Below are positions 1 to 62,535 of a DNA stretch of 64,000 nt, one piece after another (the stretch's first letter is position 1; each line of letters starts with the position of its first letter). The translations under genes and the position numbers were made by a program. Source of the DNA: Patescibacteria group bacterium (GTDB lineage Bacteria; Patescibacteriota; Patescibacteriia; UBA10025; JAHIVO01); contig JAQULM010000001.1 of NCBI GenBank assembly GCA_028718605.1, forward strand, positions 193,699-257,698. The letters are read 5' to 3'. The notes under the pieces were generated by a model. The model was not told the origin of the DNA. It searched no databases and was given only the letters and a program-made list of their open reading frames with translations.

Positions 1-3000
1 CTGAATGGCAACGGTGCCCTCGATGCCGGTGAACCGGCAATCGAAGGATGGAAGATGTACCTGAATGGCGGGAGCGAGCAGCTCACCAACGCCAGCGGCT
101 ACGCCTCATGGTATGTCCACACCGGCGGTACGTTCACCGTATCAGAAGAGAACCGCACTGGCTGGACACATACTTCCCCTGCCTCAATCGATGTTTCTGT
201 CACGTCAGGTGATTCTGCCAAGTTTGTCTACTTCTATAACTTCGAGAATGTTGATGTGAAAGTCAACAAGCTCATCGATACTGATGGCGACATTGCGACA
301 ACCGGCGATCGCACCGTTAAACAAGGCTGGACCGTCCAGCTCTGGAAAGGCGCTGCGCAAATCGGTACCGACCAAATAACTGACGTGAACGGCTCGTACA
401 CCTGGACCGATCTCGGCCCTGGCACATATACCGTGAAAGAAATCTTCAATAGCACTGAGTATACAGCGCTCACGAATACGGAATACACCTTTACCGTCAG
501 CTCGGGCACTGATGTGGAGCGGACGTTCATCAACTTCGAGAACATCGATGTGACGGTCTGCAAGTACGTTGATATGAACGGCGACGGCGACATAACCGGC
601 GATCCAGCATATACCAATAGCTGGGAAGTCACGCTCGGCAACAGCACACAGCTGACCGGTGCGAACGGCTGCGTCACCTATACGAACGCTGGTCCCGGCA
701 ACTACGATGTGACTGAAGACACGTCTGTCGCAGGCTGGGTGCAGACATACCCACGCGGTGGCAGCTATAACTTTGATGCGGTTTCAGGCGTGAATCGGAC
801 GTTCAACTTCGGTAACTTCGAAACCCCACACCTCACCGTCATCAAGCATGTCATCAATGATAATGGCGGTACAGCAGTCGCTTCTGACTTCACCATGAAT
901 GTCAGCGGGACAAACGTCTCTGACGACTCGTTCCCTGGCGATGAAGCTGGCACCACTGTCACGTTGGACGCAGGCGCGTACAGCGTTGATGAGGATGCAT
1001 TCTTCGGCTATGCCAAGACGATCGGCGCAGATTGCGCAGGGTCTGTTGTCAGCGGTGACAATAAGACCTGCACGATTACCAACGACGATATTGCGCCGGA
1101 ACTGACGGTTGTGAAGCACGTCATCAATGACAACGGCGGCTCAGCAGTCGCTGCTGACTTCACCATGAACGTCACCGCGACCAATGTTTCCGATGATTCA
1201 TTTCCCGGAGATGAGATTGGCGTCACCGTCACCCTCGACCAGGGCGCATACAGCGTAGACGAAAATGCGTTCTACGGGTATGCAAAGACGCTCAGCGCGG
1301 ACTGCACTGGCACCATTAATGTCGGTGAAACAAAGACTTGCACGATTACCAATGACGATATTCAGCCCAAACTGACCGTGACCAAAGTTGTCATCAATGA
1401 CAACGGCGGCACCGCAGTTGTGGCTGACTTCCCGTTGTTCGTGGATGCGACAAGCGTCGTCTCGGGCGTGCAGAACGGCTTCGATGCTGACGATTACGTC
1501 GTATCAGAAACCAACCTCTTCGGTTATTCAGCAACCATCTCGGGCGATTGCGACGTGAACGGTAACGTTACGCTCAATGTCGGTGACGTCAAGTCATGCA
1601 CCATCACAAATGACGATATCGCACCGGAACTGACGGTTGTGAAGCACGTCATCAATGACAACGGCGGCTCAGCAGTCGCTGCTGACTTCACCATGAACGT
1701 CACCGGAACGAACGTTTCTGACGATTCATTCGCTGGCGATGAGGCTGGTGTAACTGTTACTCTTGACCAGGGTGTATACGGCGTTGATGAGAATGCGTAC
1801 GTTGGCTATGCTAAGACACTTGGTGCGGATTGCACAGGCACCATCAATGTTGGCGAAACCAAGACCTGCACCATCACCAACGATGACATCCCCGGCAAAA
1901 TCTCCGGCTACAAGTACGACGACCACGGCACAGCGCTCCAGGGCTGGACAATCTGCATCATACAGAACGCAGCGCCGGTTAATGGGCTCGTCCCGCCGCC
2001 GTTCTGCACGGTTACTGACGCCAACGGCTACTACGAATTTGCCGGCCTCAATGTCGGCACGTTCACGATCAGCGAAACGCTAAAGGGCGGCTGGACACAG
2101 CTCGAACCTGTCGGCGTTACACACGTCATCGATGTTGTCCCTGGCACCGATTCGCAGAATAACAACTTCGTGAACCGCTTGAATGAGTTCAATGTTGACA
2201 TTGAGAAGAGCGCACCGGCAACCGTCGTTGCAGGTGATGAAATGACATACACGCTCGACTGGACGATTACTGGCAACACACCGGTATTCAACGCCCATGT
2301 GAGTGACGTCCTGCCTGCAAACACGACATTTGTGTCAGCTGCCAACGGCGGCACCTACGACAGCGCCACCAACACCGTGACCTGGGATCTCGGGACAGTA
2401 AACCCGGATGACAGCGGTACGGTTACCTTCGTTGTGAAGACAGCTTCGCCGCTCGATAACGCTACCGTTATCGAAAATACCGGCGAGGTATGCGGCACCG
2501 GGTATATCGTGCCTGAGGACGAGAACGAACTCTTTAACCCAGATGGTACGACCAAGTGCGATTCCGACAAAACCACGACGACCATCGAATCAGCGCCGAT
2601 CCTCGGCATTGAGAAGACAAACGACCGGCCAGTCGCAAATCCCGGTGATGTCGTGAACTACACAATCACCTGGAGCGTCGATGGCAATTCCAAGGCAACC
2701 AACGTTACCTTGACCGACACCGTGCCGGTTAACGAAGAAGTAGACATTACCACAATCAGCAACGGCGGCACCTACGATGCAGCGACGAGGATCATCACCT
2801 GGGATCTCGGTACGCAAATACCGCACGCCGAGGGCACTGTCACCTACTCCGTGGATCTCGATACGCCGCTCGCGAATGGCACAACGATTGTCAACGTTGC
2901 CAAACTCATGTGCGATGAAACAGATCCGCTGTTCGTAGAAGATGACTCGACGGTAGTTGTGAAGTCGGGCCCGATCCTCGAGATCGACAAGACGGTCAAC

Positions 3001-3795
3001 AAGGAATGGGTCAATCCCGGCGACACAGCCACGTATACCGTCGTCGTCAAGAACACCGGCAACGACACCGCGATCAACACGATGCTCACCGATCTCCTGC
3101 CCACTGGATTCACGTTTGTTGAATACGGCACCGACACGCATACATGGAGCCTCGGGGACCTCGAACCTGGCGACTCCGTCACGACTGTCTATGACGTGAA
3201 GATCGGCAAGGACGTCGCGAAAGGCACGTACGACAACCTCGCGGTCACCTGGGCGGATAACTACGGCAACGTCAGCGACAAGGCGCCGCTGGAAGTCCGC
3301 ATACCGCAGGTGCTCGGCACTGAACCGGAACTCGTCATCGACAAGGTTGTTGACAAGACGTTCATCAACCCCGGCGGTTCAGCGACCTACACGGTCACCG
3401 TGAAAAACATCGGCGAGGGCTTCGCCTTCAATGTGAAGGTACAGGACGTCCTGCCTGCCGGCTTCTCATTCGAGGACGGTGATGTCACCAAAGTGTGGAC
3501 ACTCGGAGATATGGCCCCTGACATGTCAAAGATGATTTCGTATAAAGTCGTCGCGGCAAAGACGATTCTTGCCGGCACGTACGAGAACATCGCGACTGCT
3601 TGGGCTGACAACAACGACAAGGTCAGCGATTCGGTGAAGCTCGAAGTCCGCATTCCGAAAGTGCTCGGCGAAGAGCTTCCGGTTACCGGCGGCAGCCTCA
3701 TGTTCTACGTGTACCTGTTCGCGGCTGGATTGATCGTCGTGTTCTCCCTGTACATGCTGAAGGTCACTTCATCCAACGAAGACGAGCAATCATAG
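1..3795 (+). CDS. Giant LPXTG-anchored surface protein (5' end lies outside the window): Cna-B/SdrD-B-like beta-sandwich repeats, four tandem ~88-aa Cys-pair repeats, five DUF11-type 'conserved repeat domain' units, and a C-terminal LPVTGG sorting signal with TM helix and charged tail
   Basis: The reading frame is open from nt 1, with the ORF track starting at 55. The protein shows repeated TVVKHVINDNGG...TKTCTITNDDI units and DUF11-like L.I.K...V.PG..V.YT..V.N.G units. The C-terminus reads ...KVLGEELPVTGGSLMFYVYLFAAGLIVVFSLYMLK, a sortase signal. Confidence 0.85.
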   Translation: MNGNGALDAGEPAIEGWKMYLNGGSEQLTNASGYASWYVHTGGTFTVSEENRTGWTHTSPASIDVSVTSGDSAKFVYFYNFENVDVKVNKLIDTDGDIATTGDRTVKQGWTVQLWKGAAQIGTDQITDVNGSYTWTDLGPGTYTVKEIFNSTEYTALTNTEYTFTVSSGTDVERTFINFENIDVTVCKYVDMNGDGDITGDPAYTNSWEVTLGNSTQLTGANGCVTYTNAGPGNYDVTEDTSVAGWVQTYPRGGSYNFDAVSGVNRTFNFGNFETPHLTVIKHVINDNGGTAVASDFTMNVSGTNVSDDSFPGDEAGTTVTLDAGAYSVDEDAFFGYAKTIGADCAGSVVSGDNKTCTITNDDIAPELTVVKHVINDNGGSAVAADFTMNVTATNVSDDSFPGDEIGVTVTLDQGAYSVDENAFYGYAKTLSADCTGTINVGETKTCTITNDDIQPKLTVTKVVINDNGGTAVVADFPLFVDATSVVSGVQNGFDADDYVVSETNLFGYSATISGDCDVNGNVTLNVGDVKSCTITNDDIAPELTVVKHVINDNGGSAVAADFTMNVTGTNVSDDSFAGDEAGVTVTLDQGVYGVDENAYVGYAKTLGADCTGTINVGETKTCTITNDDIPGKISGYKYDDHGTALQGWTICIIQNAAPVNGLVPPPFCTVTDANGYYEFAGLNVGTFTISETLKGGWTQLEPVGVTHVIDVVPGTDSQNNNFVNRLNEFNVDIEKSAPATVVAGDEMTYTLDWTITGNTPVFNAHVSDVLPANTTFVSAANGGTYDSATNTVTWDLGTVNPDDSGTVTFVVKTASPLDNATVIENTGEVCGTGYIVPEDENELFNPDGTTKCDSDKTTTTIESAPILGIEKTNDRPVANPGDVVNYTITWSVDGNSKATNVTLTDTVPVNEEVDITTISNGGTYDAATRIITWDLGTQIPHAEGTVTYSVDLDTPLANGTTIVNVAKLMCDETDPLFVEDDSTVVVKSGPILEIDKTVNKEWVNPGDTATYTVVVKNTGNDTAINTMLTDLLPTGFTFVEYGTDTHTWSLGDLEPGDSVTTVYDVKIGKDVAKGTYDNLAVTWADNYGNVSDKAPLEVRIPQVLGTEPELVIDKVVDKTFINPGGSATYTVTVKNIGEGFAFNVKVQDVLPAGFSFEDGDVTKVWTLGDMAPDMSKMISYKVVAAKTILAGTYENIATAWADNNDKVSDSVKLEVRIPKVLGEELPVTGGSLMFYVYLFAAGLIVVFSLYMLKVTSSNEDEQS
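826..1893 (+). repeat. Four intragenic tandem repeats of ~265 nt (each ~88 aa). Repeats 2 and 4 (about 1093-1180 and 1621-1708) are near-identical at the DNA level
   Basis: The string ccggaactgacggttgtgaagcacgtcatcaatgacaacggcggctcagcagtcgctgctgacttcaccatgaacgtcacc occurs twice, 528 nt apart. Confidence 0.85.
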
Positions 3796-3854: not shown

Positions 3855-4214
3855 TTAACGTGCCAATCGTAACAATAATTCGATGACGCCTGTTATATTA
3901 TGATAAACATCTCTATTGGTAATTCTAATGATTCGAATACCGAGCGATTCAATAAACTTCTGGCGTTGGTTATCATATACGATCGTTTGTTTTGATAGAA
4001 AATGTGACGGCCCATCAACCTCGATGCCAAGCCTAAGCCGGGCACAATAAAAATCAATCACATACCCGCTAACACTATACTGCCGGCGGAACTTACAACC
4101 AGCCAACTGCTTGCCTTTCAAATAACGCCACAGCACAATCTCAGCGCGTGGTGCTGAATTCCTCAAGCCCTGGCGTCGGCGCTTCATCGAATGTGTGTTA
4201 TAGATGACTGTCAT
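3855..4214 (-). CDS. DUF559 family endonuclease-domain protein (Vsr/very-short-patch-repair-like fold)
   Basis: The protein shows the DUF559 signature ...EIVLWRYLKGKQLAGCKFRRQYSVSGYVIDFYCARLRLGIEVDGPSHF...IRIIRITNRDV. An RBS aaaggggagg lies upstream of the ATG. Confidence 0.75.
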   Translation of the reverse strand: MTVIYNTHSMKRRRQGLRNSAPRAEIVLWRYLKGKQLAGCKFRRQYSVSGYVIDFYCARLRLGIEVDGPSHFLSKQTIVYDNQRQKFIESLGIRIIRITNRDVYHNITGVIELLLRLAR

Positions 4215-5541: not shown

Positions 5542-8500
5542 TTGCCTCCAGCAACCATCATTGCCTCAAAAATCGTCTGCGACAGCGAATCCGATCTGCC
5601 AAACTGGGGCGGAGCTCAAGGTGACCAATCCATCAATGCAAATACGGCAACAGACTTTGTCAATGCCAGTAATGGGAAATGCCATATTAATCTTGATTGG
5701 ACATTCCAGTATAAAACTGGCGATGTAGCCAATCCTGATGATAACTCCGGCGTTGCGAGTGACTGGTCTACTCCCTTCTCATCATCGGTGCCAGTTGATG
5801 TAAGCGCTTCCAATCTTATTAAAGTGCGTGAAATCTGGAACGATCAATATATCCCATTTACAGGTGACAACGACAACAAGAATGTAAGTGCCGAGTTTTA
5901 CTGCGCAAATGATAACTACAAATACGACAATTTCGACTATGTCACTAGCGCGCAGCCAGGCCAGACCTACTACTGCGTCGCGTTTAATGCACTCGCAGCT
6001 ATTTGCGGCGATGGTGAACTAGACCCGGCAACCGAACAATGCGACAATGGACCGGATAATACTGACGATGCATGCACAGCCGAATACGGCGATACATGTG
6101 ATTATTGCACAGCCTCATGCCAATCAGTCACAATCACTGGTCCGCATTGTGGTGACGGCATAGTCAATGGCGAAGAACAATGCGATGACGATAATTCAAT
6201 CAATAATGACGCCTGCACTAATCAATGCACATTCCCTACCGGCTCAATCACCGGTACGAAATACGAAGACATTAACGCGAGTGGTGATCGCGATACCATC
6301 GGAGACACGAGCAATACCGAACCAGGCCTCTCTGGCTGGAATATATATCTCTACCAAGGAGAAGGCCCTTCAATCGCTAATACAACCACGGATGCCAAGG
6401 GCGATTATGAATTCCTTGGTTTGACTCCGGGCGAGTACAGGGTTTGCGAAGACAACAAGCCAGATTGGCACCACACAGATCCGGGTATGAATGACAACCC
6501 GTGTAAAACCGTGACAGTAACAGCTGGCCAGGCGGTCACAGCGAATTTCGGTAACTTCCATGACGCTTGGATAGAAGGTTACAAATACGAAGATGCCAAT
6601 GGCAACGGGCAGTACGACGATGGTGAGCAATACATCAATGGTTGGCCAATTCGGTTATATAGATTAGAACAAAACAAGAAAGGTGGCACGTCCTGGGACA
6701 ATACCGCTGGCCAGGGAACTGGCTCGGTCTGGCCGGAAACCGGCAGGTATGCCTGGACTGATGTGCCTGGAACGTATTATGTTTGTGAGGTTGCCAAGCA
6801 CGACTTCGACGGTTCCGACTGGATCCAGACACAGCCGGCTGCTGACCAGGGCGTCGCGAACCAATCCGGCATGGAAGATGAAGCGTTTCGCTGTTATGAA
6901 GTCGTCATCGATGAATCCGGGGAGCAGAATACGCACCTCGATTTCGGTAATCAACGGATCGTCCCAACATACGACGTCCACGGCTACAAGTGGAACGACA
7001 TTGACGAGGATGGGTACTTTGATTGCGAAAATACCTTCTCCATTCAAACACTCACAAACGTGAACACGCTCCCCCCAGTGGCGCAATTATGCGAGCCGAA
7101 ACTCTGCGATTGGACCATCCAGCTCAAGCAGAATGGCGAAGTCCTCGATGAGACTACAACCTCGTGCGAAGACAGCCGCGATTACGGCTGGTACTGGTTC
7201 GAGGACCTTCCGGCCGGAACATACGAAATTTGTGAAGTCCAGCAGGAAGGCTGGGACCAAACGTACCCCGAGAACTGCCATAACGTGACGTTGCCGCTGG
7301 CCCAGGAAACGCTACGGGCAACTGTCATTTCTGACAATTTCGTCGAAGACGCCCCTGAGTTTGACTTTGGCAACCACCAAATCCCACCGGTTCCCGTTGT
7401 CGACATCACCAAGACCGTCACGGTAAATGGCGAGGAAACAGCCACGGCGCATGAGGGCGACTCGCTCGTCTATACGATTACTGTTTCCAATACGGGCAAC
7501 GCGACCGCGTATGACTTGAGAATCAGTGACGACTTGCCGGCAAACGTTACATTCGGAGAGGATGCGTTCAATCCCGCGCCTGGAGTCAATGACGGCACGA
7601 CTGCGGTTTGGGATCCGATCGACCTGCCCGCTGGCAATGATTATGTCATCACGATCACCGGCACCGTGAACGCAGGCCTCGAATATGGCAGCGCTGATAG
7701 CCTTGAGGTCGTCAATACGGCGACCGTCGAGCAATTCGAATTCAACCAAGAGGTTTCTTTCTGGCAAAAACTGCTCGGCGTGAAAGTCGCACATGCGCAA
7801 GCAGCAGCAGCGCCGATTAACTTTATCCACCAGGCAGCGGTTGCCGCGGTGAATGTCCTGAAGCCTGTTCCCGCTATCTGCGGCAATGGCACGATAGAGC
7901 AAGCAGCTGGCGAGGAATGCGATGACGGTGCGCTGAACAATAAGCCATGCACGGCAGGAGTCGGCCAGACCTGTACGTACTGCTCGTCAACCTGCACCAC
8001 ATTCACCGTGACTGGCGAAGAACCAACACCGGTGCTCGCTGTCCTGAAGACCGTTGACGATTCATTAACGAACCCCGGCCAAGTTGTTACCTATACAGTC
8101 ACGATCAGCAATTCCGGCAATGCGGCGGCGAAAGACGTGAAGCTCGTTGACACCCTGCCAGCAGGGCTCACCTTCGCTGACAAAAAAGGCAAAACAACCG
8201 GCGACACCGAGAAAACCTGGACTTGGAAAACGCTCGCCGCTGGCGATGACGTGACGGTCACCTACGATGCAGTAATCGACTCAAATACCGGCGCAGATGT
8301 ATATGATAACCTCGCAACAGTTACCGCAAAGAATTTCGACGGTTCAGTGACTGCCAAAGCGTCGACCGAGGTCCGCATCCCTGTCGTGCTCGGGGACGAG
8401 ACGCCTGAACTCGAAATTACGAAGACAGCAAAGCAGACATACGTTAATCCCGGCGGCACCGTTACCTACACGGTTACCGTGAAGAACGTTGGTGATGCGC

Positions 8501-8865
8501 CGGCAATGAACGCGGTGCTGACCGACACGCTTCCTGCCGGATTCGTCTTCGCTGACACGGGTAAATCGACAAAGACATGGAAATTGGGTGATATCGTGCC
8601 GGATGAGGTAGTAACCAAGACCTACACGGTCAAGGTTGATGCTTCAACAATCGCGGGTAAGTACACGAACTTAGCCACGGTGAAAGCTGATGATACGCCG
8701 GTTATAACGGCGAAGGCTGCTGTCGAGGTTCGGACGCCGAAAGTATTAGGTGCTGAAGACGAGCCGACACAGCTGCCAGTCACTGGCGCAGGCATTCTCG
8801 GGTTAGTTGCTGCTGCAGCCGTCATTATTGGCACGGGCGTCATCTCCAAGAAACGGACGCGGTAA
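5542..8865 (+). CDS. Large LPXTG-type surface protein body: SdrD-B/Cna-B repeats, two Myxococcus-type Cys-rich repeats (CGDG...EQCDDGN), three DUF11 repeats, and a C-terminal QLPVTGAG sorting signal with TM helix and KKRTR tail. It has no signal peptide of its own
   Basis: The motifs AICGDGELDPATEQCDNG and AICGNGTIEQAAGEECDDG are present. DUF11 units read EITKTAKQTYVNPGGTVTYTVTVKNVGDAP. The ORF-track start is a TTG directly after the in-frame TAG, and no RBS was found. Confidence 0.8.
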   Translation: MPPATIIASKIVCDSESDLPNWGGAQGDQSINANTATDFVNASNGKCHINLDWTFQYKTGDVANPDDNSGVASDWSTPFSSSVPVDVSASNLIKVREIWNDQYIPFTGDNDNKNVSAEFYCANDNYKYDNFDYVTSAQPGQTYYCVAFNALAAICGDGELDPATEQCDNGPDNTDDACTAEYGDTCDYCTASCQSVTITGPHCGDGIVNGEEQCDDDNSINNDACTNQCTFPTGSITGTKYEDINASGDRDTIGDTSNTEPGLSGWNIYLYQGEGPSIANTTTDAKGDYEFLGLTPGEYRVCEDNKPDWHHTDPGMNDNPCKTVTVTAGQAVTANFGNFHDAWIEGYKYEDANGNGQYDDGEQYINGWPIRLYRLEQNKKGGTSWDNTAGQGTGSVWPETGRYAWTDVPGTYYVCEVAKHDFDGSDWIQTQPAADQGVANQSGMEDEAFRCYEVVIDESGEQNTHLDFGNQRIVPTYDVHGYKWNDIDEDGYFDCENTFSIQTLTNVNTLPPVAQLCEPKLCDWTIQLKQNGEVLDETTTSCEDSRDYGWYWFEDLPAGTYEICEVQQEGWDQTYPENCHNVTLPLAQETLRATVISDNFVEDAPEFDFGNHQIPPVPVVDITKTVTVNGEETATAHEGDSLVYTITVSNTGNATAYDLRISDDLPANVTFGEDAFNPAPGVNDGTTAVWDPIDLPAGNDYVITITGTVNAGLEYGSADSLEVVNTATVEQFEFNQEVSFWQKLLGVKVAHAQAAAAPINFIHQAAVAAVNVLKPVPAICGNGTIEQAAGEECDDGALNNKPCTAGVGQTCTYCSSTCTTFTVTGEEPTPVLAVLKTVDDSLTNPGQVVTYTVTISNSGNAAAKDVKLVDTLPAGLTFADKKGKTTGDTEKTWTWKTLAAGDDVTVTYDAVIDSNTGADVYDNLATVTAKNFDGSVTAKASTEVRIPVVLGDETPELEITKTAKQTYVNPGGTVTYTVTVKNVGDAPAMNAVLTDTLPAGFVFADTGKSTKTWKLGDIVPDEVVTKTYTVKVDASTIAGKYTNLATVKADDTPVITAKAAVEVRTPKVLGAEDEPTQLPVTGAGILGLVAAAAVIIGTGVISKKRTR

Positions 8866-53300: not shown

Positions 53301-54425
53301 CTATTCAAGCTCGGTAAACCGCTCGAGGAGCTCCCGCTGGGCATGCGACAGGTGCTCGGGCGTAACAACGTTCACGGTCACGAGATGGTCTCCCCTGCCG
53401 CGTGAATGGAGGTGGGGCACGCCCTTGCTGTCCAGCCGAAATACCTTGCCGGACTGGGTCCCAGCCGGGATTTTCAGGATGACTTCGCCGTCAATCGTCA
53501 GCACCGGTATTTTTGCTCCGAGCGCTGCCTGGGGAAATGATATATTCGCTTCAGATAGGATATCGTCGGCCTCGCGCCTGAAATCAGGATCTTTATGAAC
53601 GCGTATCGTCAAGAACAGGTCACCGACGGCACCGCCGCGCGCACCCGCCTCTCCCTTGCCGGACAAACGGATCACCTGCCCGTCGCTGATACCCGCAGGA
53701 ATCTTCACCTTTAACTTTTCCGTTTCCTTCTTGCGCCCTTCGCCACGGCATACTGAACACTTCTTCGAGGCTCGTTTGCCCTCGCCCTTGCAGTCAGGGC
53801 ACGGTACAGCAGTCTGGAACGACCCGAGGATCGTGCGCTGCACCCGGGCAACCTGCCCGCTGCCGCCGCACGTCGGGCATGTTTCAACCTTGGTTCCAGG
53901 TTCCGCGCCATTGCCGCCACAGTGCGGACACACAGTTTGCTTGTACAGGTCAATAATTTTATCGACACCGAACGCCGCTTCCCGAAATTCAACTGTCATC
54001 TCCGCCTGGATATCCTGGCCGCGCCGCGATGCACGCCCTCCCCGCGCCGTGCGCCTGCCGAATCCGAAGAGGTCGCCGAAAATATCGCCGAGGTCGTTCA
54101 TGTCAAACTCCGCTCCCTGCTGTGAAAAACCGCCCCCGAACGGCCCTGCGCCTCCCTGCGCACGCGCAAAATCGTCCCAGGAGAAGCCGCCAGCGCCAGG
54201 GCCCCCTGCACCCCCGCTGAACGCCTGGCCAAACTGGTCATACTGCTTGCGCTTGTCAGGATTGGACAGCACCTGGTATGCCCCGTTGATTTCCTTGAAT
54301 TTCGCTTCATCGCCGCCTGCTTTATCGGGGTGATGCTGGTGTGCGAGCGTGCGGTACGCGCGCTTTATTTCGTCCGGTGACGCGCTCCGCGAAACGCCGA
54401 GTATTTCATAAAAATCCTTTGCCAT
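53301..54425 (-). CDS. dnaJ: Chaperone DnaJ
   Basis: The J-domain MAKDFYEILGVSRSASPDEIKRAYRTLAHQHHPDK is followed by a G/F-rich region and four CxxCxGxG zinc repeats. Confidence 0.95.
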   Translation of the reverse strand: MAKDFYEILGVSRSASPDEIKRAYRTLAHQHHPDKAGGDEAKFKEINGAYQVLSNPDKRKQYDQFGQAFSGGAGGPGAGGFSWDDFARAQGGAGPFGGGFSQQGAEFDMNDLGDIFGDLFGFGRRTARGGRASRRGQDIQAEMTVEFREAAFGVDKIIDLYKQTVCPHCGGNGAEPGTKVETCPTCGGSGQVARVQRTILGSFQTAVPCPDCKGEGKRASKKCSVCRGEGRKKETEKLKVKIPAGISDGQVIRLSGKGEAGARGGAVGDLFLTIRVHKDPDFRREADDILSEANISFPQAALGAKIPVLTIDGEVILKIPAGTQSGKVFRLDSKGVPHLHSRGRGDHLVTVNVVTPEHLSHAQRELLERFTELE

Positions 54426-55476: not shown

Positions 55477-55511
55477 AGGTATGCTCAGTAAAATACTTGG
55501 ATAGCGTTGCG

Positions 55512-55817: not shown

Positions 55818-56009
55818 AGAATGGTATATGAGTTAATAATTGTGTGTAATTATATCACGAATGTGGTTATTGGGGGTATGCATTGTTCTTTGCGTTTCGT
55901 GGCGATGTGGCGATTATTTGACAGACAAACGACGATGCCGTACACTCTGTACCATTATCTCACTGCATGAAACAAACACACACCCAAAGCGTACAAAGGA
56001 GGTACTCGC

Positions 56010-56342
56010 ATGGCCGGTTATGCAATCAAGGAAGTGATTGACAACTCCAGGCATGGAAAAATGTCAATCAAGCACGACGGCGGCACGTTCTACGTCACCA
56101 AGGACGACCTCGTGGCTGGCGTTACGGTCCTCGAGCTGGCACCGGAAGAGACCGGGGAGATGCTCGAGCGGATCGGCACCAAAGGATGCGTGTTGACAGT
56201 GACTGCCGCGACCCGCGATAGTATTCTGGACGCGCTCGGAATTCCCGCTGAGGAGCGCGAATCCCTCGCAACGCAGGAAGATCTCGCCGCTGCCGCACTC
56301 GAGGTGGACAGCCAACCCCACCGCCATTCCCACACGCCGTAA
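56010..56342 (+). CDS. Hypothetical protein
   Basis: A strong RBS aaaggagg precedes the ATG. Confidence 0.6.
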   Translation: MAGYAIKEVIDNSRHGKMSIKHDGGTFYVTKDDLVAGVTVLELAPEETGEMLERIGTKGCVLTVTAATRDSILDALGIPAEERESLATQEDLAAAALEVDSQPHRHSHTP

Positions 56343-56634
56343 TCCAGCACCCTGCCCGTCGAAATACTCAGGAGCTCCAGCGGTCATTGCGACCAACGGG
56401 GCTCCTTCTATTACCCCGCTTATAAATTGACGCTTTCTCAAAGATCACTTATAGTTCCTGCTGCACATTGCCCTCCAAGCGCTCTTCTTGCTGCTAACCT
56501 TCCCGCAGTATTCTCGAGCGCGTGTGCGGATGAATTGCTCTTCCGCGCAAACGGGTCGCTGATGGTACGCTCCCGTGAATGCGTACCTCCACTTTTTTCC
56601 ACGGAGCCCTCCCACAAGGGCTCCCCCATTACCC

Positions 56635-56671
56635 GGCTCGCCTCCCCCTCACGTTTTTTGGGAGGCGGGCC
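56635..56671 (+). other. Very stable 12-bp stem hairpin with a U-rich loop, preceded by a second 7-bp hairpin at 56603-56624
   Basis: The hairpin is ggctcgcctccc[cctcacgtttttt]gggaggcgggcc and is followed by acttttatt. Confidence 0.5.
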
Positions 56672-56678
56672 ACTTTTA

Positions 56679-56708
56679 TTGACAATAGCGCGGGCTCCAG
56701 AATATTAT
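56679..56708 (+). promoter_or_regulatory. Sigma70-like promoter TTGACA-N18-TATTAT with no downstream CDS (candidate sRNA promoter)
   Basis: The sequence is ttgacaatagcgcgggctccagaatattat. A 10-bp perfect-stem hairpin at 56795-56825 and a T7 run at 56852 lie downstream. Confidence 0.4.
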
Positions 56709-57241
56709 GGGATAAACATACACACACCAACACAGAAAACAAACCACTCAATATAGATAACAGGGCGCAGCAACCCCTGGTTCCTCCCACAATCGCCCGC
56801 GGCGCATACTACCCTCGCCGCGGGCAACTTATAATATTTGAAACGTACGTTGAGTGCTTTTTTTCAGTACCCTTGACAATATGATTAATTGTAACTAACC
56901 TTTTATTGCCATCGTCGCCCTATCACTCTCCCTGCTATGTGTAGGGCATCATGGCACATGCCCAGCGGGTGGTAGCCGCATCCTTACACCAACAAAACTA
57001 CTGCCCCGGGCTTCCCTGCAAGTACCGTGATAAGACATGCTCTCCCAGGGCGTGGCTTATCAGAGCAAGCTGGCGTTTGCGATGTGTGATACTTCATGCT
57101 TTTCCAACCTCCTCGCGTGAGGTATCATACCAAGCCGTGCTTGCTGCATTATTGAGTCAGGTATCCACCCCCGGGTGCCTGGCTCAAATTTTTTTTTCAA
57201 AGAAACCCAACCTTTGTCATGCTAAACTTAATTCAGCATCT

Positions 57242-57709
57242 CTATTTCTTCCTCTCCAAATAATAATCATCAATGGCACGCACGAGCTCAACCGGCTTTG
57301 CGTCAAAAATCCACTCATGCTTGCCCTTGGTGCTATCATTCTCAACAATCAGCGTGTAGCAGTTCGCCATCGAGAGCAGGCAGTGCGGCATGGCAATATG
57401 GAAATGCCATTTCTCGCCTGTCTTGACGTACTTCCGCACCAAATCAAGCGCCTCATGCTTCACTGGCTTCCGGTTGCGGCGTTTGGGCTTATTGAGCTGG
57501 TACGCGTGTTCCTCAAGCTCCTCGCGGAGCTCTTTGGACGAATCGCAGTACAGCATGTCGTCTCCGCATTCGAAAACGATTATTTCCTTTCCTGTGTCAT
57601 TCGCGTAGCATTCCCGCGACAAACAATGGTGGTGCCATCCAGCGCCGGCCTTCATCGCCCGCTCGCGTATTTCATCTTGGGTGGCCTTTTTTCCGAGTTT
57701 TGTAATCAT
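57242..57709 (-). CDS. Hypothetical Cys/His-rich protein
   Basis: The sequence ...GWHHHCLSRECYANDTGKEIIVFECGDDMLYCDSS... has a non-repetitive composition. The antisense ORF 56951-57799 was rejected. Confidence 0.5.
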   Translation of the reverse strand: MITKLGKKATQDEIRERAMKAGAGWHHHCLSRECYANDTGKEIIVFECGDDMLYCDSSKELREELEEHAYQLNKPKRRNRKPVKHEALDLVRKYVKTGEKWHFHIAMPHCLLSMANCYTLIVENDSTKGKHEWIFDAKPVELVRAIDDYYLERKK

Positions 57710-57728
57710 TGGATATATCGAGAATTTA

Positions 57729-58373
57729 TTAATAGCCTAAAACTTCTTTCACCAGGACCATGTGCAGCTTCCTCCCTTTCGTCGGGGGACGCTCGATAAT
57801 CAGGATTTCACTGATGACACTCCCCGGTGCACCCAAGCTCTTCATGTGCTCATCCACCAGCGGAAAGACGTACTCCCGAAGCCGCTTCATACCCTCGGGA
57901 AGGGTCGGCACGATTTTCTGCGCGCCGACGACCCAGATGACGTTGTCACTCGTATACGCGTACGACGGCAGCTGGCTGCCCGTAGCCGACCCGATAACCA
58001 TCTGTCCGTCCTCGGTCAGCGCATGGACGCTCGCGAGGAAGTAATCGGCCAGCACGCTCTTCTTGCGCAGTACGTTCTGCTTCACCGGGTCCTTTTCAGC
58101 AACAATATCGTTTTTCAGGTTCTTCCACGGGTGGCCGCCTGATTTCAGCACATCGACAAACCCGATCTGCTCCAATGTCAGCGAGCTGCCGGTCATCACT
58201 TCCGCACCCGCGGGAATCAGGCCCCGCACCGTCCCAAGCGCCTCCTCTTTGTTTTTTACAACGTGAACGATCACGTTTTTCTCCTCCAACGCGCGCTGTG
58301 TTTTATTGATAATGTCTTTTGTTGGTACTGCATCGTATTTCATAATGATTTTCTTTAGTGAATTAGCTTCCAC
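57729..58373 (-). CDS. LUD-domain (LutC/YkgG-like) protein
   Basis: At 214 aa, the segments ...VHVVKNKEEALGTV...GAEVMTGSSLTLEQIG...VIGSATGSQL... fit the family. Confidence 0.45.
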   Translation of the reverse strand: MEANSLKKIIMKYDAVPTKDIINKTQRALEEKNVIVHVVKNKEEALGTVRGLIPAGAEVMTGSSLTLEQIGFVDVLKSGGHPWKNLKNDIVAEKDPVKQNVLRKKSVLADYFLASVHALTEDGQMVIGSATGSQLPSYAYTSDNVIWVVGAQKIVPTLPEGMKRLREYVFPLVDEHMKSLGAPGSVISEILIIERPPTKGRKLHMVLVKEVLGY

Positions 58374-58395
58374 TCAATCTCCCGCGGACTGAAAA

Positions 58396-58896
58396 TTATT
58401 TTTCTGCTTGCGCCTCTTTCTTGCTGGGGTTGCTACTTTTCTTTTTTTCATCAACTAAACCATTTAATGCATCTAAAGTAGCGGCCGATTGCCAATATTC
58501 AATATTAACTGAATGTAAATATGTATTTGCCAATTTTGTATTTATTATTTCCATATCGTATGAAACGGTTTTTTCTAACTCAGAGATATGGGCAATTAAA
58601 TTTCGAAATTTATTTAAATTTTCAAGTTGCTTATTTAATTCCTTATCATCAAAAATTTTTTTAATTATCTTAACTTTTTGTATAAATCTCAGCTCGGCAA
58701 GTACATCTTTTAAAGTTTGTTTCTTCTCTAATAAGTCGGGATTATTATCGACGTTTAATTGAATAATAAGATCCATTACACTTTCAACAAATGCGTGATC
58801 CTTAAGAACCTGTATATCAATCTCCTTCAGGTATATTTTTTGTTTTTCGATGAGCTTATTATACACTCTATCGAAGGCTTCATTAAGATTTGTCAT
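58396..58896 (-). CDS. Hypothetical all-alpha protein with a HEPN-like Rx4H motif (KFRNLIAH), inside an AT-rich island
   Basis: Local GC is roughly 30 percent against more than 50 percent in the flanks. The motif is R-N-L-I-A-H. Confidence 0.45.
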   Translation of the reverse strand: MTNLNEAFDRVYNKLIEKQKIYLKEIDIQVLKDHAFVESVMDLIIQLNVDNNPDLLEKKQTLKDVLAELRFIQKVKIIKKIFDDKELNKQLENLNKFRNLIAHISELEKTVSYDMEIINTKLANTYLHSVNIEYWQSAATLDALNGLVDEKKKSSNPSKKEAQAEK

Positions 58897-58932
58897 AAAT
58901 ATTTATAAATTACGTATATTTTATTGTTTGTT

Positions 58933-59466
58933 TTACCACTGAACAGTAAGACTATGCCTGTTCATAAATTTTTCTAGAGTTTCGTCCCTATAGTAACGCC
59001 CAATAATATTAGCAATACCCACCTGAATTGGAGTATACCAATAACTAAAATTTGCTTTTTCACTCTGCCCACTTATTAACTTTCTTTCTGGAACAGGAAT
59101 AAAATACCTACCTCCGTCCAAAGAAATGAACTCTACTGACACTAATGCCTGACCGTTTACCTTTATTTTCACCGCTCGAACATGCTTTGTTTCATCAGGG
59201 TAATCTTTCATCCAGCCCTCCTTCGTCGTCCAATTATGGCCTACTTCATCGATCTCAATAACAAATTCAGGATGGGTTTCATACTGCCAGTTTGACTCGT
59301 CTCTACTAATATTTATTTTTTTCCACTTTTTGGTTCTCTTTAGGTAATACTTAACCCTTTTAATGGGACTAATATAGGTAATTATTGCAAGATAGCTTCC
59401 AATAATTGTAGCGATTAATCCTAAAATTGTTACTATCCACGACATCCAATTCATACATTCCCCCAA
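58933..59466 (-). CDS. Hypothetical N-terminally membrane-anchored protein, the first gene of the AT-rich island
   Basis: The TM helix is WMSWIVTILGLIATIIGSYLAIITYI. The gene is AT-rich and lies 36 nt upstream of the HEPN-like gene. Confidence 0.45.
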   Translation of the reverse strand: MGECMNWMSWIVTILGLIATIIGSYLAIITYISPIKRVKYYLKRTKKWKKINISRDESNWQYETHPEFVIEIDEVGHNWTTKEGWMKDYPDETKHVRAVKIKVNGQALVSVEFISLDGGRYFIPVPERKLISGQSEKANFSYWYTPIQVGIANIIGRYYRDETLEKFMNRHSLTVQW

Positions 59467-59586
59467 AGAGCCCGCCCGGCTTTGCTTGAGGCAATACCGA
59501 TAGCGGACGGGCGGGCCCCAAACTGAGAACCCGCCCTTTGCGTATTAACTACATTGAAATTGTAAATTAGTTTTCATGGCAGCATA

Positions 59587-61509
59587 CTACTTCTTTACTT
59601 CCTCATACTGCGCGTCGACAGGGCCTTTATCCTGTTTCGGGGGCTCTTGCTTTGACCCGCCTGGTTGCGCGCCTCCTGAGCTCTGCGAAGGACCTCCTTT
59701 GGGCGGTTCTTGCTTCTGGTACATCGCCTGCCCGATCTTTTGGATTGTCTGCGACAGCTCATCCGTCGCTTTCTTGATTTCAGCCATGTCATCCTTGTCC
59801 TTCACTTTTTTCAGCGCTTCAATCTTTTCCTCAACCTCTTTCTTCACTTTCGCATCGAGCTTGTCGCCGGCATCCTTCACCGCTTTTTCGGCGGTGTAGG
59901 TCAGGGTTTCCGCCTGGTTGCGCGCATCGATCAGGTCTTTCTTTTTCTTGTCCTCGTCCGCGTGCTTGGACGCGTCCTGCTTCATTTTCTCCACTTCATC
60001 TTTTGACAAGCCGGATGACGCGGTAATGGTGATGGACTGCTCCTTGCCCGTCGCGCGGTCTTTTGCTTTGACATTGAGGATGCCGTTTGCATCAATGTCG
60101 AACGTAACCTCAACCTGCGGTACCCCGCGTGGTGACGGCGGAATGCCGGACAGGATAAACTTTCCCAAGGTCTTGTTGTCAGGCGCCATAGGCCGTTCGC
60201 CCTGCAGCACGTGGATTTCAACGCTTGTCTGGTTGTCAGCAGCCGTCGAAAACACCTGCGACTTGGACGTCGGGATGGTGGTATTGCGTTCAATCAATGG
60301 GGTAGAAACATTGCCCAGTGTTTCGATGCCGAGCGTCAGCGGCGTCACGTCGAGCAGCAGGACGTCTTTTACGTCCCCTTGCAGCACGCCTGCCTGCACT
60401 GCGGCACCGAGCGCCACGACTTCGTCCGGGTTTACGCCGATATGCGGTTTCTTGCCAAAGAATTTTTCAACCGTCTCGAGCACTTTTGGCATTCTCGTCA
60501 TGCCGCCAACCATGACGACCTCGTTGATATCTGTCGTCTTCACGTTCGCGTCAGCGAGCGCCTTTTTGACCGGCTCAATCGTTTTTTCAATGAGATCGCC
60601 AACCAAGTCTTCCAGTTTCGCCCGCGTGAGCTTCACGGTAAGATGCTTGGGCCCGGAAGCGTCAGTGGTGATAAACGGCAGGTTAATCTCAGTTTCCGTG
60701 GTTGTGGACAACTCGATCTTTGCCTTTTCGCCCTGCTCTTTGAGGCGCTGCAATGCCATCGGGTCTTTGCCCAGGTCAATGCCCTGGTCTTTCTTGAATT
60801 CCTCGATCAGCCAGTCAATGATGCGCTTGTCAAAATCATCGCCGCCGAGATGTGTATCGCCGTTCGTGGACTTCACCTCAACCGTATCTGATGCGACGTC
60901 GAGAATCGAAATATCGAACGTGCCGCCGCCCAGGTCGTACACGGCGATCTGCTGGTTCTTCTTTTTCTCGAAGCCGTAGGCGAGTGCAGCCGCGGTTGGT
61001 TCATTAATGATACGTTTTACCTTCAAGCCTGCGATCTCGCCCGCGTCCTTAGTCGCCTGGCGCTGGGAGTCATCAAAATACGCCGGTACGGTGATGACCG
61101 CTTCTTCGATTTTCTCGCCCAATTTCGCTTCCGCGTCCGCTTTCAGCTTCTGGAGAATCATTGCCGACACTTCCTGCGGCGTGTACTCCTTGCCGGCCAT
61201 GATGACCTTCACGCCTTCGCCGGCATGGACGATTTTGTACGGCATGGTTTTCACGTCACGCTGTACCTCATCGTCGCTCCAGTGGCGGCCGATCAAGCGT
61301 TTGATCGAAAAAATCGTGTTTTCATAATTTGTGACAGCCTGCCGCTTGGCAATCTGCCCGACCATGCGCTCGCCTGCCTTGTTGATCGCAACAACAGACG
61401 GCGTGGTCCTGTTCCCTTCTTTGTTCTCGAGCACTTTTGGCTCGCCTCCCTCGATGATTGCCATCGCGGAGTTGGTCGTGCCGAGATCGATTCCTAGAAT
61501 TTTTGACAT
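59587..61509 (-). CDS. dnaK: Chaperone DnaK (Hsp70)
   Basis: The motifs [26 protein letters not shown] and [11 protein letters not shown] are present, together with the acidic C-terminus. Confidence 0.97.
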
Positions 61510-61544
61510 ACAACGTCTATCCTTTCAAAATTATTAATGATTGA

Positions 61545-62003
61545 TTAATGAATGTTTTGGAGAAAATTATCTGTTTTTTCCATTGCTTCATGGAGCGTGA
61601 GTACGTCCTCGCTCTTCACTGCCGCCTCGTCCCTGAACCGCAGCACTTCATCCTGCTCCAGGTCGGTGAGCGCTGTGGCGACTTTCAGGCCAAAGCTGCC
61701 AAGGGCAATGATGGAGAGCGCAGCGCTGTCGCACACTGAACATTTGATATACATGAGCGTGGCTCCGTCCTCTTCCAGGAGCACCTCGAGTTTGCCGAAG
61801 TCGTACAGCGTGCCGCATACGGGGCAGCGCGCATCGATTTTGATGCGTTCTGGCTTGCCGCCCGGCCGCTTGGGCATGCCGGGAAAATCGCTCCCGTTCA
61901 TTATTTTCATATAAATGCTTTTATAAATTATTACTGGCTGAAGTGAGGAGATAACAGCCATCGTTTTGCGGCTTACCTCTCTCGCTTCGGCCAGGCTGCC
62001 CAT
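61545..62003 (-). CDS. Hypothetical protein with two CxxC pairs (zinc-ribbon-like), inserted between hsp20 and dnaK
   Basis: The pairs are CPVCGT and CSVCDS. Confidence 0.5.
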   Translation of the reverse strand: MGSLAEAREVSRKTMAVISSLQPVIIYKSIYMKIMNGSDFPGMPKRPGGKPERIKIDARCPVCGTLYDFGKLEVLLEEDGATLMYIKCSVCDSAALSIIALGSFGLKVATALTDLEQDEVLRFRDEAAVKSEDVLTLHEAMEKTDNFLQNIH

Positions 62004-62026
62004 GGGCAGCCTAACCGGACGCGGCC

Positions 62027-62461
62027 TTATTTGGTTTTATTTTTCTTGACCGCGATTTTTATAGTTTTTGGCTTCACCTCTTCCGCTTTCGGGATGGTAA
62101 TCTTGAGCATCCCGTTCTCGAATTCCGCTTTTGCCTGGTCGCCTTTCACGTGCGTCGGCAGTGCGACGGCGCGGTAGAAACTGCCCATGCGGACTTCTTT
62201 GCGGTAGTAGTTCTTGTCGTCCACTTCAGACTTATGCTCGACTTTGCCCTCGATCTTGAGGACGTCATTTTCGATCGACACCGTCACCTTGTCCGGATCC
62301 ACGCCTGCGAGCGGGGTTTCCGCGATGACATTGTCCTTGTCGTGGTACACGTCCACTGCCGGCGTAAACGCCTGCATATTGCCGGGCATCATCGGCATGT
62401 CTTCGAAGAACTTGTCGACATCCGCCGTGTCAAACATTGGTCTCCAACGTATAATTGCCAT
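62027..62461 (-). CDS. Hsp20/alpha-crystallin family small heat-shock protein
   Basis: The alpha-crystallin domain reads ...PAVDVYHDKDNVIAETPLAGVDPDKVTVSIENDVLKIEGK...ENGMLKITIPK. Confidence 0.9.
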   Translation of the reverse strand: MAIIRWRPMFDTADVDKFFEDMPMMPGNMQAFTPAVDVYHDKDNVIAETPLAGVDPDKVTVSIENDVLKIEGKVEHKSEVDDKNYYRKEVRMGSFYRAVALPTHVKGDQAKAEFENGMLKITIPKAEEVKPKTIKIAVKKNKTK

Positions 62462-62531: not shown

Positions 62532-62535
62532 TATT

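What the first reader, a model, noticed from the sequence alone, without database searches (positions are those of the whole stretch)
58380..59470. AT-rich two-gene island (membrane-anchored protein plus HEPN-like Rx4H protein) wedged beside the dnaK operon: a candidate defence or toxin module
Local GC drops to roughly 30 percent over ~1.1 kb between a housekeeping LUD-domain gene and the dnaK terminator. The flanks are above 50 percent GC, which indicates horizontal acquisition. The island encodes a 177-aa protein with an N-terminal TM helix. It is followed 36 nt later by a 166-aa all-alpha protein with a KFRNLIAH motif, matching the Rx4-6H catalytic signature of HEPN RNases (as in Abi, HepT and RnlA/LsoA-type toxins). 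Small, compositionally foreign two-gene cassettes with a HEPN partner are hallmarks of abortive-infection or toxin-antitoxin systems. This membrane-protein plus HEPN pairing does not match any system recognisable by eye, and it may be novel.
Basis: partly seen in the sequence, partly recalled or inferred. Interest (0 to 1): 0.65.

Follow-up and report, generated by a model that had tools for sequence, protein, structure and literature searches.

The report
AT-rich two-gene defence islet beside dnaK
A 1.1-kb AT-rich insert next to dnaK in a Patescibacteria genome holds two real accessory genes, a membrane-anchored protein with an uncharacterised defence-island domain and a small HEPN-fold (predicted RNase) protein, but the two are not a conserved pair, so this is most likely two stacked candidate anti-phage genes, not one new two-gene system.

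Summary
Window 58,396-59,466 is the lowest-GC stretch of the 64 kb (0.32 against a mean of 0.51, about 5 SD; GC3 0.27-0.35 against 0.66-0.69). It carries two co-oriented minus-strand genes 36 nt apart, both under purifying selection.

Gene A (173/177 aa) is one TM helix plus a confidently modelled beta-rich domain with no solved-structure match. That domain is homologous to the central part of PADLOC candidate PDC-S50. Elsewhere it is fused to TIR instead of the TM helix, or stands alone on plasmids. About half of the other loci place it in or beside R-M or Abi genes.

The pairing is not conserved. None of 20 other A loci has B. The B orthologue in a related genome also sits after dnaK in a low-GC island, but with an unrelated membrane protein in A's place.

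Best reading: a small variable defence islet holding two independent candidate abortive-infection genes. HEPN is supported; "novel TM+HEPN system" is not.

The parts
58933..59466 (-). Gene A: 177-aa ORF from TTG (173 aa from the ATG at 59454, as in NCBI PHY34_01930). It is a membrane-anchored protein with a PDC-S50-like central domain.
   Evidence: ORF; identical database protein P0003; PADLOC PDC-S50 E 9.7e-19 and phrog_29016 E 4e-11; AF2 pLDDT 93.4; dN/dS about 0.12.
59371..59445 (-). N-terminal transmembrane helix of A (residues ~4-28 of the 173-aa form). The N-out/C-in topology is inferred.
   Evidence: Hydropathy; AF2 places one continuous helix at residues 3-38; conserved in about 30 family members.
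59317..59361 (-). Basic juxtamembrane stretch KRVKYYLKRTKKWKK. By the positive-inside rule it places the C-terminal domain in the cytoplasm.
   Evidence: 9 K/R and 0 D/E in residues 30-46. TIR-fused homologues lack any TM helix, so the domain works in the cytoplasm.
58936..59325 (-). Conserved beta-rich domain of A (residues ~44-173), homologous to PDC-S50 profile positions ~170-300.
59089..59130 (-). Core signature of the A domain, FISLDGGRYFIPVP (residues 109-122).
   Evidence: Invariant or near-invariant columns F109, D113, G114, R116, Y117, F118, V119, P120 and P122 in 27 sequences. It was used as the search pattern.
58897..58932 (-). 36-nt A-B spacer, GC 0.11. No terminator-like site; TATAAAT lies 5 nt before the B start and no clear Shine-Dalgarno sequence is visible.
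   Evidence: Sequence; GC; scan.
58396..58896 (-). Gene B: 166-aa all-alpha protein (NCBI PHY34_01935) with a HEPN fold. It is the founding member of a 4-member family.
58588..58605 (-). Rx4H motif of B (R98-N-L-I-A-H103), the predicted HEPN RNase active-site motif.
   Evidence: Read directly. R98, A102 and H103 are invariant in all 4 family members. The motif definition comes from PMC3710099.
58783..58797 (-). Upstream conserved H34-A35-x-x-E38 in the second helix of B. E38 is the candidate for the second conserved acidic residue of HEPN domains.
   Evidence: Invariant in 4 of 4 members. The feature is described in PMC3710099 section 6.
59470..59536 (-). Two GC-rich hairpins between the dnaK stop and the A start. 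They mark the upper boundary of the AT-rich island.
   Evidence: RNA fold -51.5 kcal/mol, z = -2.9. The consensus scan does not call them a terminator.
59587..61509 (-). dnaK, the upstream housekeeping flank (GC 0.54).
57729..58373 (-). LUD-domain gene, the downstream flank (GC 0.54). It starts 22 nt after the B stop with no terminator between them.

Best explanation
The segment 58,396-59,466 is a real, compositionally foreign mini-island in a variable slot just downstream of dnaK in a Patescibacteria chromosome. It carries two co-oriented and probably co-transcribed accessory genes. Each belongs to a conflict- or defence-associated lineage, but they are not an obligate pair.

Gene A. Shown: it tethers a cytoplasmic, beta-rich domain of about 130 aa to the membrane through one N-terminal TM helix. 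The same domain is the central part of PADLOC candidate PDC-S50. In other genomes it carries a TIR domain instead of the TM helix, or stands alone, and it sits inside R-M and Abi gene arrays. Inferred: A is a single-protein abortive-infection-type module. The conserved domain would sense a trigger and/or drive oligomerisation. The interchangeable N-terminal part would be the killing part, by membrane perturbation for the TM helix or by NAD+ depletion for TIR.

Gene B. Shown: it is a small protein with the HEPN fold, an invariant Rx4H motif and an upstream conserved Glu. Inferred: it is a metal-independent RNase that acts as a dimer or oligomer and is held inactive until infection. This resembles stand-alone HEPN Abi proteins such as HepS.

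The two genes are most likely stacked independent modules. A functional link (HEPN RNase upstream of a membrane effector, as in Cas13b-Csx28) is possible but has no comparative support.
For: Island and genes are real.

Gene A:
- PDC-S50 E 9.7e-19 and phrog_29016 E 4e-11, matching only profile positions ~170-300.
- About 36 homologues, mostly TM-anchored proteins of 170-194 aa in Patescibacteria.
- TIR_2 above Pfam's threshold replaces the TM helix in P0038, P0039, L013, L014 and L022.
- Domain-only forms exist as P0041 and on Klebsiella and Shewanella plasmids.
- Neighbours: HsdM-A-HsdS-Abi_C-HsdR (L009); HsdM-3TM-A-HsdS-PIN (L017); A-EcoRI-type methylase-GmrSD/HNH (L020); A-AbiJ_NTD3 with a 4-nt overlap (L008); AbiLi/AbiLii (L002); pPIWI-associated nuclease (L013); HsdR arrays (L027 and the P0036 contig).
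- The A gene is AT-richer than its locus in 17 of 19 loci.

Gene B:
- R98, H103 and E38 are invariant.
- Sub-threshold HEPN_Swt1 and RiboL-PSP hits in the L001 orthologue.
- phrog_5483 in 2 of 4 members (best E 2e-6) and a weak hit to an 'abortive infection resistance protein' phrog.
- HepS shows that one HEPN protein can be a complete Abi system.

Not a pair:
- The B HMM is absent from all 20 other A loci, and A is absent from L001, L004 and L005.
- In L001, B keeps its place after dnaK while an unrelated 3-TM protein replaces A.
Against: - No experiment exists for PDC-S50 or any relative (no paper mentions it), so 'defence' rests on context alone.
- B has no significant hit to any Pfam, PADLOC or NCBIfam HEPN model.
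- The polar residue after R is present in only 2 of 4 members.
- The A domain also exists without any effector part, which fits a pure 'sensor plus effector' story less well.
- The tight 36-nt spacing without a terminator, plus HEPN-type or Rx4H-bearing neighbours of A in L002 and L009, leaves room for real A-HEPN cooperation.
- This window shows no other defence genes, integrase or tRNA next to the islet.
Confidence: 0.55

Rival explanations
1. A and B are one obligate two-gene abortive-infection system. The HEPN protein B would sense or cleave RNA on infection and then activate, or be activated by, the membrane protein A. This would be analogous to Cas13b activating the Csx28 membrane pore.
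For: The genes are co-oriented, 36 nt apart, with no terminator between them, and share the same foreign composition. Three of four B-family genes have a small membrane protein directly upstream. Some A homologues have HEPN-type or Rx4H-bearing genes nearby: the FRNDLIH protein in L002 and Abi_C in L009. Cas13b-Csx28 is a precedent.
Against: The B HMM is found in 0 of 20 other A loci, and A in 0 of 3 other B loci. The membrane partners of B in L001 and L005 are homologous neither to A nor to each other. Three of four is expected by chance when 40-50% of this genome's ORFs score as membrane proteins (P about 0.3). The L004 member follows a HigB/HigA pair with no TM protein. HEPN genes are in any case common in R-M islands (PMC3710099).
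Confidence: 0.2
2. B is a non-catalytic, MtlR-like HEPN protein (a regulator or RNA-binding protein), and A is a lineage-specific membrane protein unrelated to defence, for example involved in envelope or episymbiosis functions. On this reading the islet is just AT-rich accessory DNA.
Against: R and H of the Rx4H motif are invariant at 24-26% overall identity to the distant members, whereas non-catalytic MtlR members typically lose the motif (PMC3710099). A's relatives are repeatedly inside R-M or Abi arrays and take a TIR domain in place of the TM helix. Both families are extremely patchy and AT-shifted in most genomes.
Confidence: 0.15
3. The pair is a classical toxin-antitoxin module, with B as the HEPN toxin and A as its antitoxin or immunity protein.
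Against: A is not an MNT nucleotidyltransferase or any known antitoxin type. A toxin should keep its cognate antitoxin, yet B's upstream gene differs in every locus. A occurs in about 20 loci without B.
Confidence: 0.05
4. The feature is an artefact: an assembly chimera or spurious ORFs in AT-rich DNA.
For: The window comes from a metagenome-assembled genome, and the composition switches abruptly.
Against: An independent assembly (L001, ACD_7C) shows the same dnaK-to-AT-rich-island-to-B junction. Both proteins have homologues under purifying selection. P(ORF by chance) is about 1e-7. The same proteins are recorded on two contigs from separate sources.
Confidence: 0.02

Closest known systems
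PADLOC candidate PDC-S50 (PDLC05032) and phrog_29016
   Same: A's residues 33-144 match profile positions 172-283 of 387 at E 9.7e-19 (phrog_29016: 174-279 of 389, E 4e-11). All 10 further family members tested match the same central block. Both are defence-island associated.
   Different: Only about 130 of 387 positions are shared. A lacks the ~170-residue N-terminal part and the ~85-residue C-terminal part of PDC-S50 and has a single TM helix instead. TIR-fused relatives do not match PDC-S50's N-terminus either. PDC-S50 is itself an unvalidated candidate with no literature.
HEPN superfamily (Anantharaman et al. 2013, PMC3710099): MtlR/YggD, HepT (DUF86), Abi2/Swt1-like
   Different: No significant sequence-profile match to any Pfam, PADLOC or NCBIfam HEPN family. 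The family has only 4 members in 1.84 billion representatives. N after R occurs in only 2 of 4 members. No MNT partner and no mannitol-operon context.
HepS, the single-HEPN-protein Abi system of the Gifsy-1 prophage (PMC13043305; PDB 9oik)
   Different: Sequence identity over the aligned region is 15%. HepS is prophage-borne in Salmonella, while B lies in a CPR chromosome beside dnaK. The trigger and RNA target of B are unknown and untested.
Cas13b-Csx28 (HEPN RNase activating a membrane pore; bioRxiv 10.1101/2021.11.02.466367)
   Same: It is a precedent for pairing a HEPN RNase with a small membrane protein as the downstream effector.
   Different: There is no CRISPR array or Cas13 here. A is unrelated to Csx28, and the A-B pairing is not conserved. 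This is an analogy only.
Defence effectors with interchangeable TM and TIR killing modules (Pycsar PycTM/PycTIR, CBASS 2TM/TIR effectors, Thoeris), cited from established knowledge and not tested here
   Same: The A family shows the same pattern: one conserved C-terminal domain with either a TM helix or a TIR domain at the N-terminus.
   Different: No cyclase, SMODS or ThsB-type signal generator is adjacent in any locus examined. The conserved domain is not a cNMP-binding, SAVED or SLOG domain (no Pfam hit, and no fold match).
HEPN-MNT type II/VII toxin-antitoxin pairs
   Different: The partner here is a membrane protein with an unknown beta domain, not a nucleotidyltransferase. The partner is not conserved.

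Membership tests
HEPN superfamily (definition: PMC3710099 section 6) | All-alpha core of about 100-120 aa built from two alpha-hairpins (four-helix bundle). | tested here: met
HEPN superfamily | An Rx4-6H motif conserved across the family. | tested here: met
   R98 and H103 (spacing 4) are invariant in all 4 members, at identities down to 24-26%.
HEPN superfamily | A polar residue (N/D/H) immediately after the conserved R. | tested here: inconclusive
   N in the window protein and in P0002; K in P0005 and V in P0007.
HEPN superfamily | A second, upstream conserved acidic residue, typically within Ex3[KR]. | tested here: inconclusive
   E38 is invariant, but position +4 is D/D/D/N, not K/R.
HEPN superfamily | A significant profile match to a curated HEPN family (Pfam clan, PADLOC Abi models). 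| tested here: not met
   The window protein has no HEPN hit at E <= 10. One of four members gives HEPN_Swt1 E 0.008 and RiboL-PSP E 0.04, both below cut-off. hhalign against single Abi_C and AbiJ-like sequences finds nothing.
HEPN superfamily | Metal-independent endoribonuclease activity that depends on the R and H residues. | not testable with these tools
   Needs purified protein and R98A/H103A mutants.
PADLOC PDC-S50 | Full-length match to the 387-position model. | tested here: not met
   Only profile positions 172-283 are matched. The same central block matches in 10 other family members.
PADLOC PDC-S50 | Homology of the central domain. | tested here: met
   E 9.7e-19, supported by phrog_29016 at E 4e-11.
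PADLOC PDC-S50 | Location in defence islands. | tested here: met
   Met for the family: R-M, AbiL, AbiJ-like, GmrSD, PIN, pPIWI-nuclease, Fic or DUF4365 genes lie within 3 genes in about 11 of about 21 distinct loci. Not met in this window itself, where the neighbours are dnaK and a LUD gene.
Conserved two-gene system (A+B) | Co-occurrence of both gene families in other genomes. | tested here: not met
   An HMM of B finds no hit in 20 other A loci, and an HMM of A finds no hit in the 3 other B loci.
HEPN-MNT toxin-antitoxin | An adjacent minimal nucleotidyltransferase antitoxin. | tested here: not met
   A has no NTase hit in any library and its fold is beta-rich and unmatched.
Integrative mobile island | An integrase or recombinase, a tRNA target, and flanking direct repeats. 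| tested here: not met
   No tRNA lies within 20 kb. There is only a 16-nt, 81% AT-rich repeat at the borders, probably by chance. The 1.1 kb contains no recombinase ORF.

The most novel reading that the evidence does not exclude
The FxSLDGGRYFVPxP beta-domain of gene A would be a previously uncharacterised sensor or oligomerisation domain. It would define a modular family of single-protein abortive-infection systems that swap a TM helix, a TIR domain or other heads, and the family would be especially common in Patescibacteria, where known defence systems are scarce. In this window it would additionally have been coupled to a new HEPN RNase family (B), which generally works with interchangeable small membrane proteins. 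That would make a non-CRISPR counterpart of Cas13b-Csx28.
Probability: 0.2. Interest if true: 0.65.

Novelty: new variant of a known kind. Interest (0 to 1): 0.4.

Why it matters
Patescibacteria (CPR) have tiny genomes and few recognisable defence systems, and one survey notes they may hide unknown ones (PMC12259885).

Gene A belongs to a family that is mostly patescibacterial. It is confidently foldable, has no solved structural relative, swaps a TM helix for a TIR domain, and repeatedly sits inside R-M operons. That makes it a concrete, testable candidate for a new defence domain.

Gene B adds a very rare new branch to the HEPN superfamily with its catalytic motif intact.

The dnaK-flanking slot holds B in two related genomes while the upstream gene has been exchanged. 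This is a small, clean example of a variable accessory-gene hotspot inside a heat-shock gene array.

None of this overturns current ideas. The value is as leads, not as a surprise.

Tried and rejected
- Direct family assignment of B (Pfam, PADLOC, NCBIfam, PHROGs) gave nothing significant. There were only sub-threshold HEPN hits in one orthologue, plus phrog_5483 of unknown function.
- A profile of B against PDB sequences gave only a spurious protein A repeat.
- I looked for A or B in GenBank phages, PLSDB plasmids and IMG/VR using the window proteins and found none. Only the TIR-fused query P0039 pulled out weak plasmid hits, which the A HMM then confirmed as stand-alone domains.
- I tested whether the small membrane proteins upstream of B (L001, L005) and upstream of A (L006, L007, L010, L011, L017) are one family. 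No homology was found.
- I tested whether 'TM protein upstream of B' exceeds background. It does not.
- I looked for mobile-element hallmarks (tRNA, repeats, Rfam) and found none.
- P0006, a hit in the B search, is a repetitive artefact.
- A's weak SLATT, 2TM and retron-Ec48-2TM hits (E 0.006-0.09) cover only the TM helix and were treated as compositional.
Full report
OBSERVATION. The finding is accurately described. On the minus strand, a 177-aa ORF (58933..59466, TTG start) is followed 36 nt later by a 166-aa ORF (58396..58896). NCBI annotates the first as 173 aa from the ATG at 59454, which is preceded by GGGGGA. Both proteins exist in public databases as hypothetical proteins PHY34_01930 and PHY34_01935 of a Patescibacteria MAG on a 651-kb contig.

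GC is 0.365 in gene A, 0.291 in gene B and 0.11 in the spacer, against 0.54 in dnaK and 0.54 in the LUD gene. GC3 is 0.35 and 0.27 against 0.66-0.69 in dnaK, LUD, dnaJ, grpE and the 155-aa gene. Among all 1,090-bp windows of the 64 kb (mean 0.514, sd 0.037), the minimum is 0.321 at 58301. The next lowest region elsewhere is 0.394.

ORFs this long have a probability of about 1e-7 in this composition. dN/dS against the nearest homologues is about 0.09 for B and 0.12 for A, with dS saturated, so both are real genes under purifying selection. The flanks are DnaK (E 5e-233 to solved DnaK) and a LUD-domain protein (E 3e-27). The 'dnaK terminator' is two strong GC-rich hairpins (z = -2.9) with only a weak U-tract. 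The consensus scan does not call it a terminator, and nothing terminator-like follows A or B. Read-through from dnaK into A, B and the LUD gene is therefore possible.

GENE A. Residues ~4-28 form a hydrophobic helix. They are followed by KRVKYYLKRTKKWKK (9 K/R, 0 D/E), so the positive-inside rule places the rest of the protein in the cytoplasm. With a 27-sequence alignment, AlphaFold gives pLDDT 93.4 and pTM 0.82: one long helix (residues 3-38), then a domain of eight beta-strands and two short helices.

A profile search found 36 relatives. About 32 are TM-anchored proteins of 170-194 aa, mostly from Patescibacteria, Saccharimonadia and Paceibacterota. The core signature is F[IV]SLDGGRYFVPxP. 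Distant members lack the TM helix and instead carry an N-terminal TIR domain above Pfam's gathering score (P0038, P0039, L013, L014, L022). P0041 is the domain alone. Proteins of 131-134 aa on Klebsiella ColRNAI plasmids and on a conjugative Shewanella plasmid are also stand-alone copies (33-40 bits with the family HMM). All of these hit PDC-S50 only in its central block, so PDC-S50 has yet another N-terminal module. The domain is therefore a mobile cytoplasmic module that combines with at least three different heads (TM helix, TIR, and the PDC-S50 N-terminal module) and also occurs alone.

CONTEXT OF A ELSEWHERE. In about 21 distinct loci, the neighbours are strikingly conflict-related:
- L009/L016: HsdM-A-HsdS-Abi_C-HsdR.
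- L017: HsdM-3TM protein-A-HsdS-PIN.
- L020: A-EcoRI-type methylase-GmrSD_N/HNH.
- L008: A overlaps an AbiJ_NTD3 protein by 4 nt.
- L002: AbiLi/AbiLii lie 2.3 kb away.
- L013: a TIR-A fusion sits beside a pPIWI-associated nuclease and a serine recombinase.
- L012: DUF4365-A.
- L007: Fic.
- L027: A lies four genes downstream of HsdR.
- P0036 contig: A overlaps the end of a fused N6-methylase/specificity gene next to an HsdR-like helicase.

The A gene is AT-richer than the rest of its locus in 17 of 19 loci. No paper mentions PDC-S50, so a defence role rests on guilt by association and on the TM/TIR swap.

GENE B. No library gives a significant hit. The word-indexed search and the exhaustive HMMER scan of 1.84 billion representatives together give only three true relatives: P0002 (71%), P0005 (31%) and P0007 (26%). 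A fourth hit is a repeat artefact. In the four-sequence alignment, R98, A102 and H103 (the Rx4H motif), N95 and an upstream H34-A35-x-x-E38 are invariant.

- TTHA0636
- MtlR (two entries) and YggD
- HI0074
- AF0298
- YutE
- HepT toxins
- HepS
- the HEPN C-terminal domain of AbiA
- sacsin HEPN
- TT1696
- Csm6

Measured against the published definition of HEPN, the fold and the conserved Rx4H are met. The polar residue after R and the Ex3[KR] motif are only partly met. A significant match to a curated HEPN model is not met. I therefore assign B to the HEPN superfamily as a new small family (about 0.75-0.8). I treat RNase activity as inferred (about 0.5).

ARE A AND B A SYSTEM? HMMs of both families were run on every ORF and six-frame segment of all 29 fetched loci. 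B occurs only in the window, L001, L004 and L005. A occurs in none of those three, and none of the 20 other chromosomal A loci has B.

The upstream genes of the B relatives are a 201-aa 3-TM protein (L001), a 138-aa 3-TM protein (L005) and a HigB/HigA pair (L004). These membrane proteins are not homologous to A, to each other, or to the small TM proteins that precede A in five other loci. With my crude predictor, 41-51% of ORF-called genes in this window have a hydrophobic segment. So '3 of 4' has P of about 0.3 and is not evidence of a rule.

ORIGIN. L001, an independent assembly from the ACD aquifer set, has a dnaK 3' end 77% identical in DNA to the window. It shows the same layout:
- dnaK, GC 0.49
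- an island of GC 0.27 holding a TM protein, a B orthologue (73% nt, 71% aa) and a 69-aa ORF
- a flank of GC 0.46

The alignment between the two genomes starts exactly at B's start codon, and the gene in A's position is unrelated. So B beside dnaK is either ancestral to both organisms or marks a recurrent hotspot, and the slot upstream of B has been exchanged. No integrase or tRNA is present, and the only flanking repeat is a 16-nt, 81% AT-rich match that is probably chance. 'Recent horizontal acquisition' is thus too simple. The more accurate description is a persistent, AT-rich, variable accessory slot.

MECHANISM (shown versus inferred).

Shown:
- the architecture and topology logic of A
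- its domain swaps and genomic neighbourhoods
- the fold and conserved motif of B
- the lack of co-occurrence of the two families

Inferred:
- A works as a single-protein abortive-infection module. Its conserved domain recognises a trigger and/or oligomerises. Its N-terminal helix damages the membrane, or the TIR domain in relatives depletes NAD+. This follows the logic of Pycsar, CBASS and Thoeris effectors that swap TM and TIR heads (established knowledge, not tested here).
- B is a dimeric or oligomeric metal-independent RNase that stays silent until infection, like HepS, a single HEPN protein that both senses and kills.
- The absence of any conserved partner argues that B is self-controlled and not an antitoxin-neutralised toxin.

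A Cas13b-Csx28-like coupling of B to A cannot be excluded, and I give it about 0.2.

NOVELTY AND SCORE. B is a new, very rare member of a known superfamily. A is a new architecture of a catalogued but uncharacterised candidate family whose fold has no solved relative. The claimed new two-gene system is not supported. I rate this 'new variant of a known kind', with interest 0.4. It gives good experimental leads for CPR defence biology but is not a surprise to specialists.

LIMITS.
- Model coordinates could not be inspected.
- The AFDB fold library was unavailable.
- No profile-profile search against Pfam or PDB70 was possible.
- dS is saturated, so the relative age of B and dnaK cannot be resolved.
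- My TM predictor and greedy gene calls are crude.

Noticed in passing
window 53301-63795 (- strand): The heat-shock array reads hrcA-grpE-hsp20-like-152-aa CxxC protein-dnaK. About 5.1 kb of unrelated genes (A, B, LUD, a 155-aa protein, a 415-aa membrane protein and others) then separate dnaK from dnaJ at 54425..53301.
   Followed up: partly
window 55820-57240: This ~1.4-kb stretch has no convincing long ORF, and no Rfam family reaches its gathering score. GC skew is strongly negative at 56300-56900.
   Followed up: partly
window 3855-5540: The second-lowest-GC region of the window (0.394 at 4451-5540) holds a 312-aa TM/secreted ORF between two giant surface proteins (55..3795 and 5542..8865) that end in LPVTG-like motifs. 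The 119-aa ORF at 3855..4214 (-) looks DUF559/Vsr-endonuclease-like by eye; this was not tested.
   Followed up: no
L002 998-1552: The 184-aa protein immediately after (and overlapping) an A homologue carries FRNDLIH, an Rx4H motif. It has no Pfam, PADLOC or PDB hit and no detectable similarity to B. It may be another unrecognised HEPN-like partner.
   Followed up: partly
L009 4372-11855 (= L016): One type I R-M operon has two inserted passengers: an A-family gene between hsdM and hsdS, and an Abi_C (HEPN) gene between hsdS and hsdR.
   Followed up: yes
L013 5329-7784: A TIR-A fusion protein lies tail-to-tail with a 501-aa protein carrying the pPIWI-associating nuclease domain (pP_pnuc_1), near an HTH gene and a serine recombinase. 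This may be part of a prokaryotic Argonaute-type island.
   Followed up: partly
L025 1261-1656; L026 3983-4387: Stand-alone copies of the A domain (131 and 134 aa, LVSVDGHRATLPMP core) occur on ~4.6-kb Klebsiella ColRNAI plasmids (many near-identical records) and on the conjugative Shewanella plasmid pSBP2_mcr4. They are annotated as hypothetical proteins.
   Followed up: partly
window 58388-58403 and 59559-59574: A 16-nt AT-rich imperfect direct repeat (81% identity) lies at both borders of the island. It is probably a chance match in AT-rich DNA, but it sits where att-like repeats would be.
   Followed up: no
L004 999-2219: The most GC-rich B-family member (P0005) directly follows a Gp49/HigB-like toxin and an HTH (HigA-like) antitoxin pair, which is another conflict-gene neighbourhood.
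   Followed up: partly
L006, L007, L010, L011, L017 (gene -1 relative to A): Small multi-TM proteins of 94-251 aa sit directly upstream of A in five loci. They are mutually non-homologous, and it is unclear whether this exceeds the high membrane-protein background of CPR genomes.
   Followed up: partly
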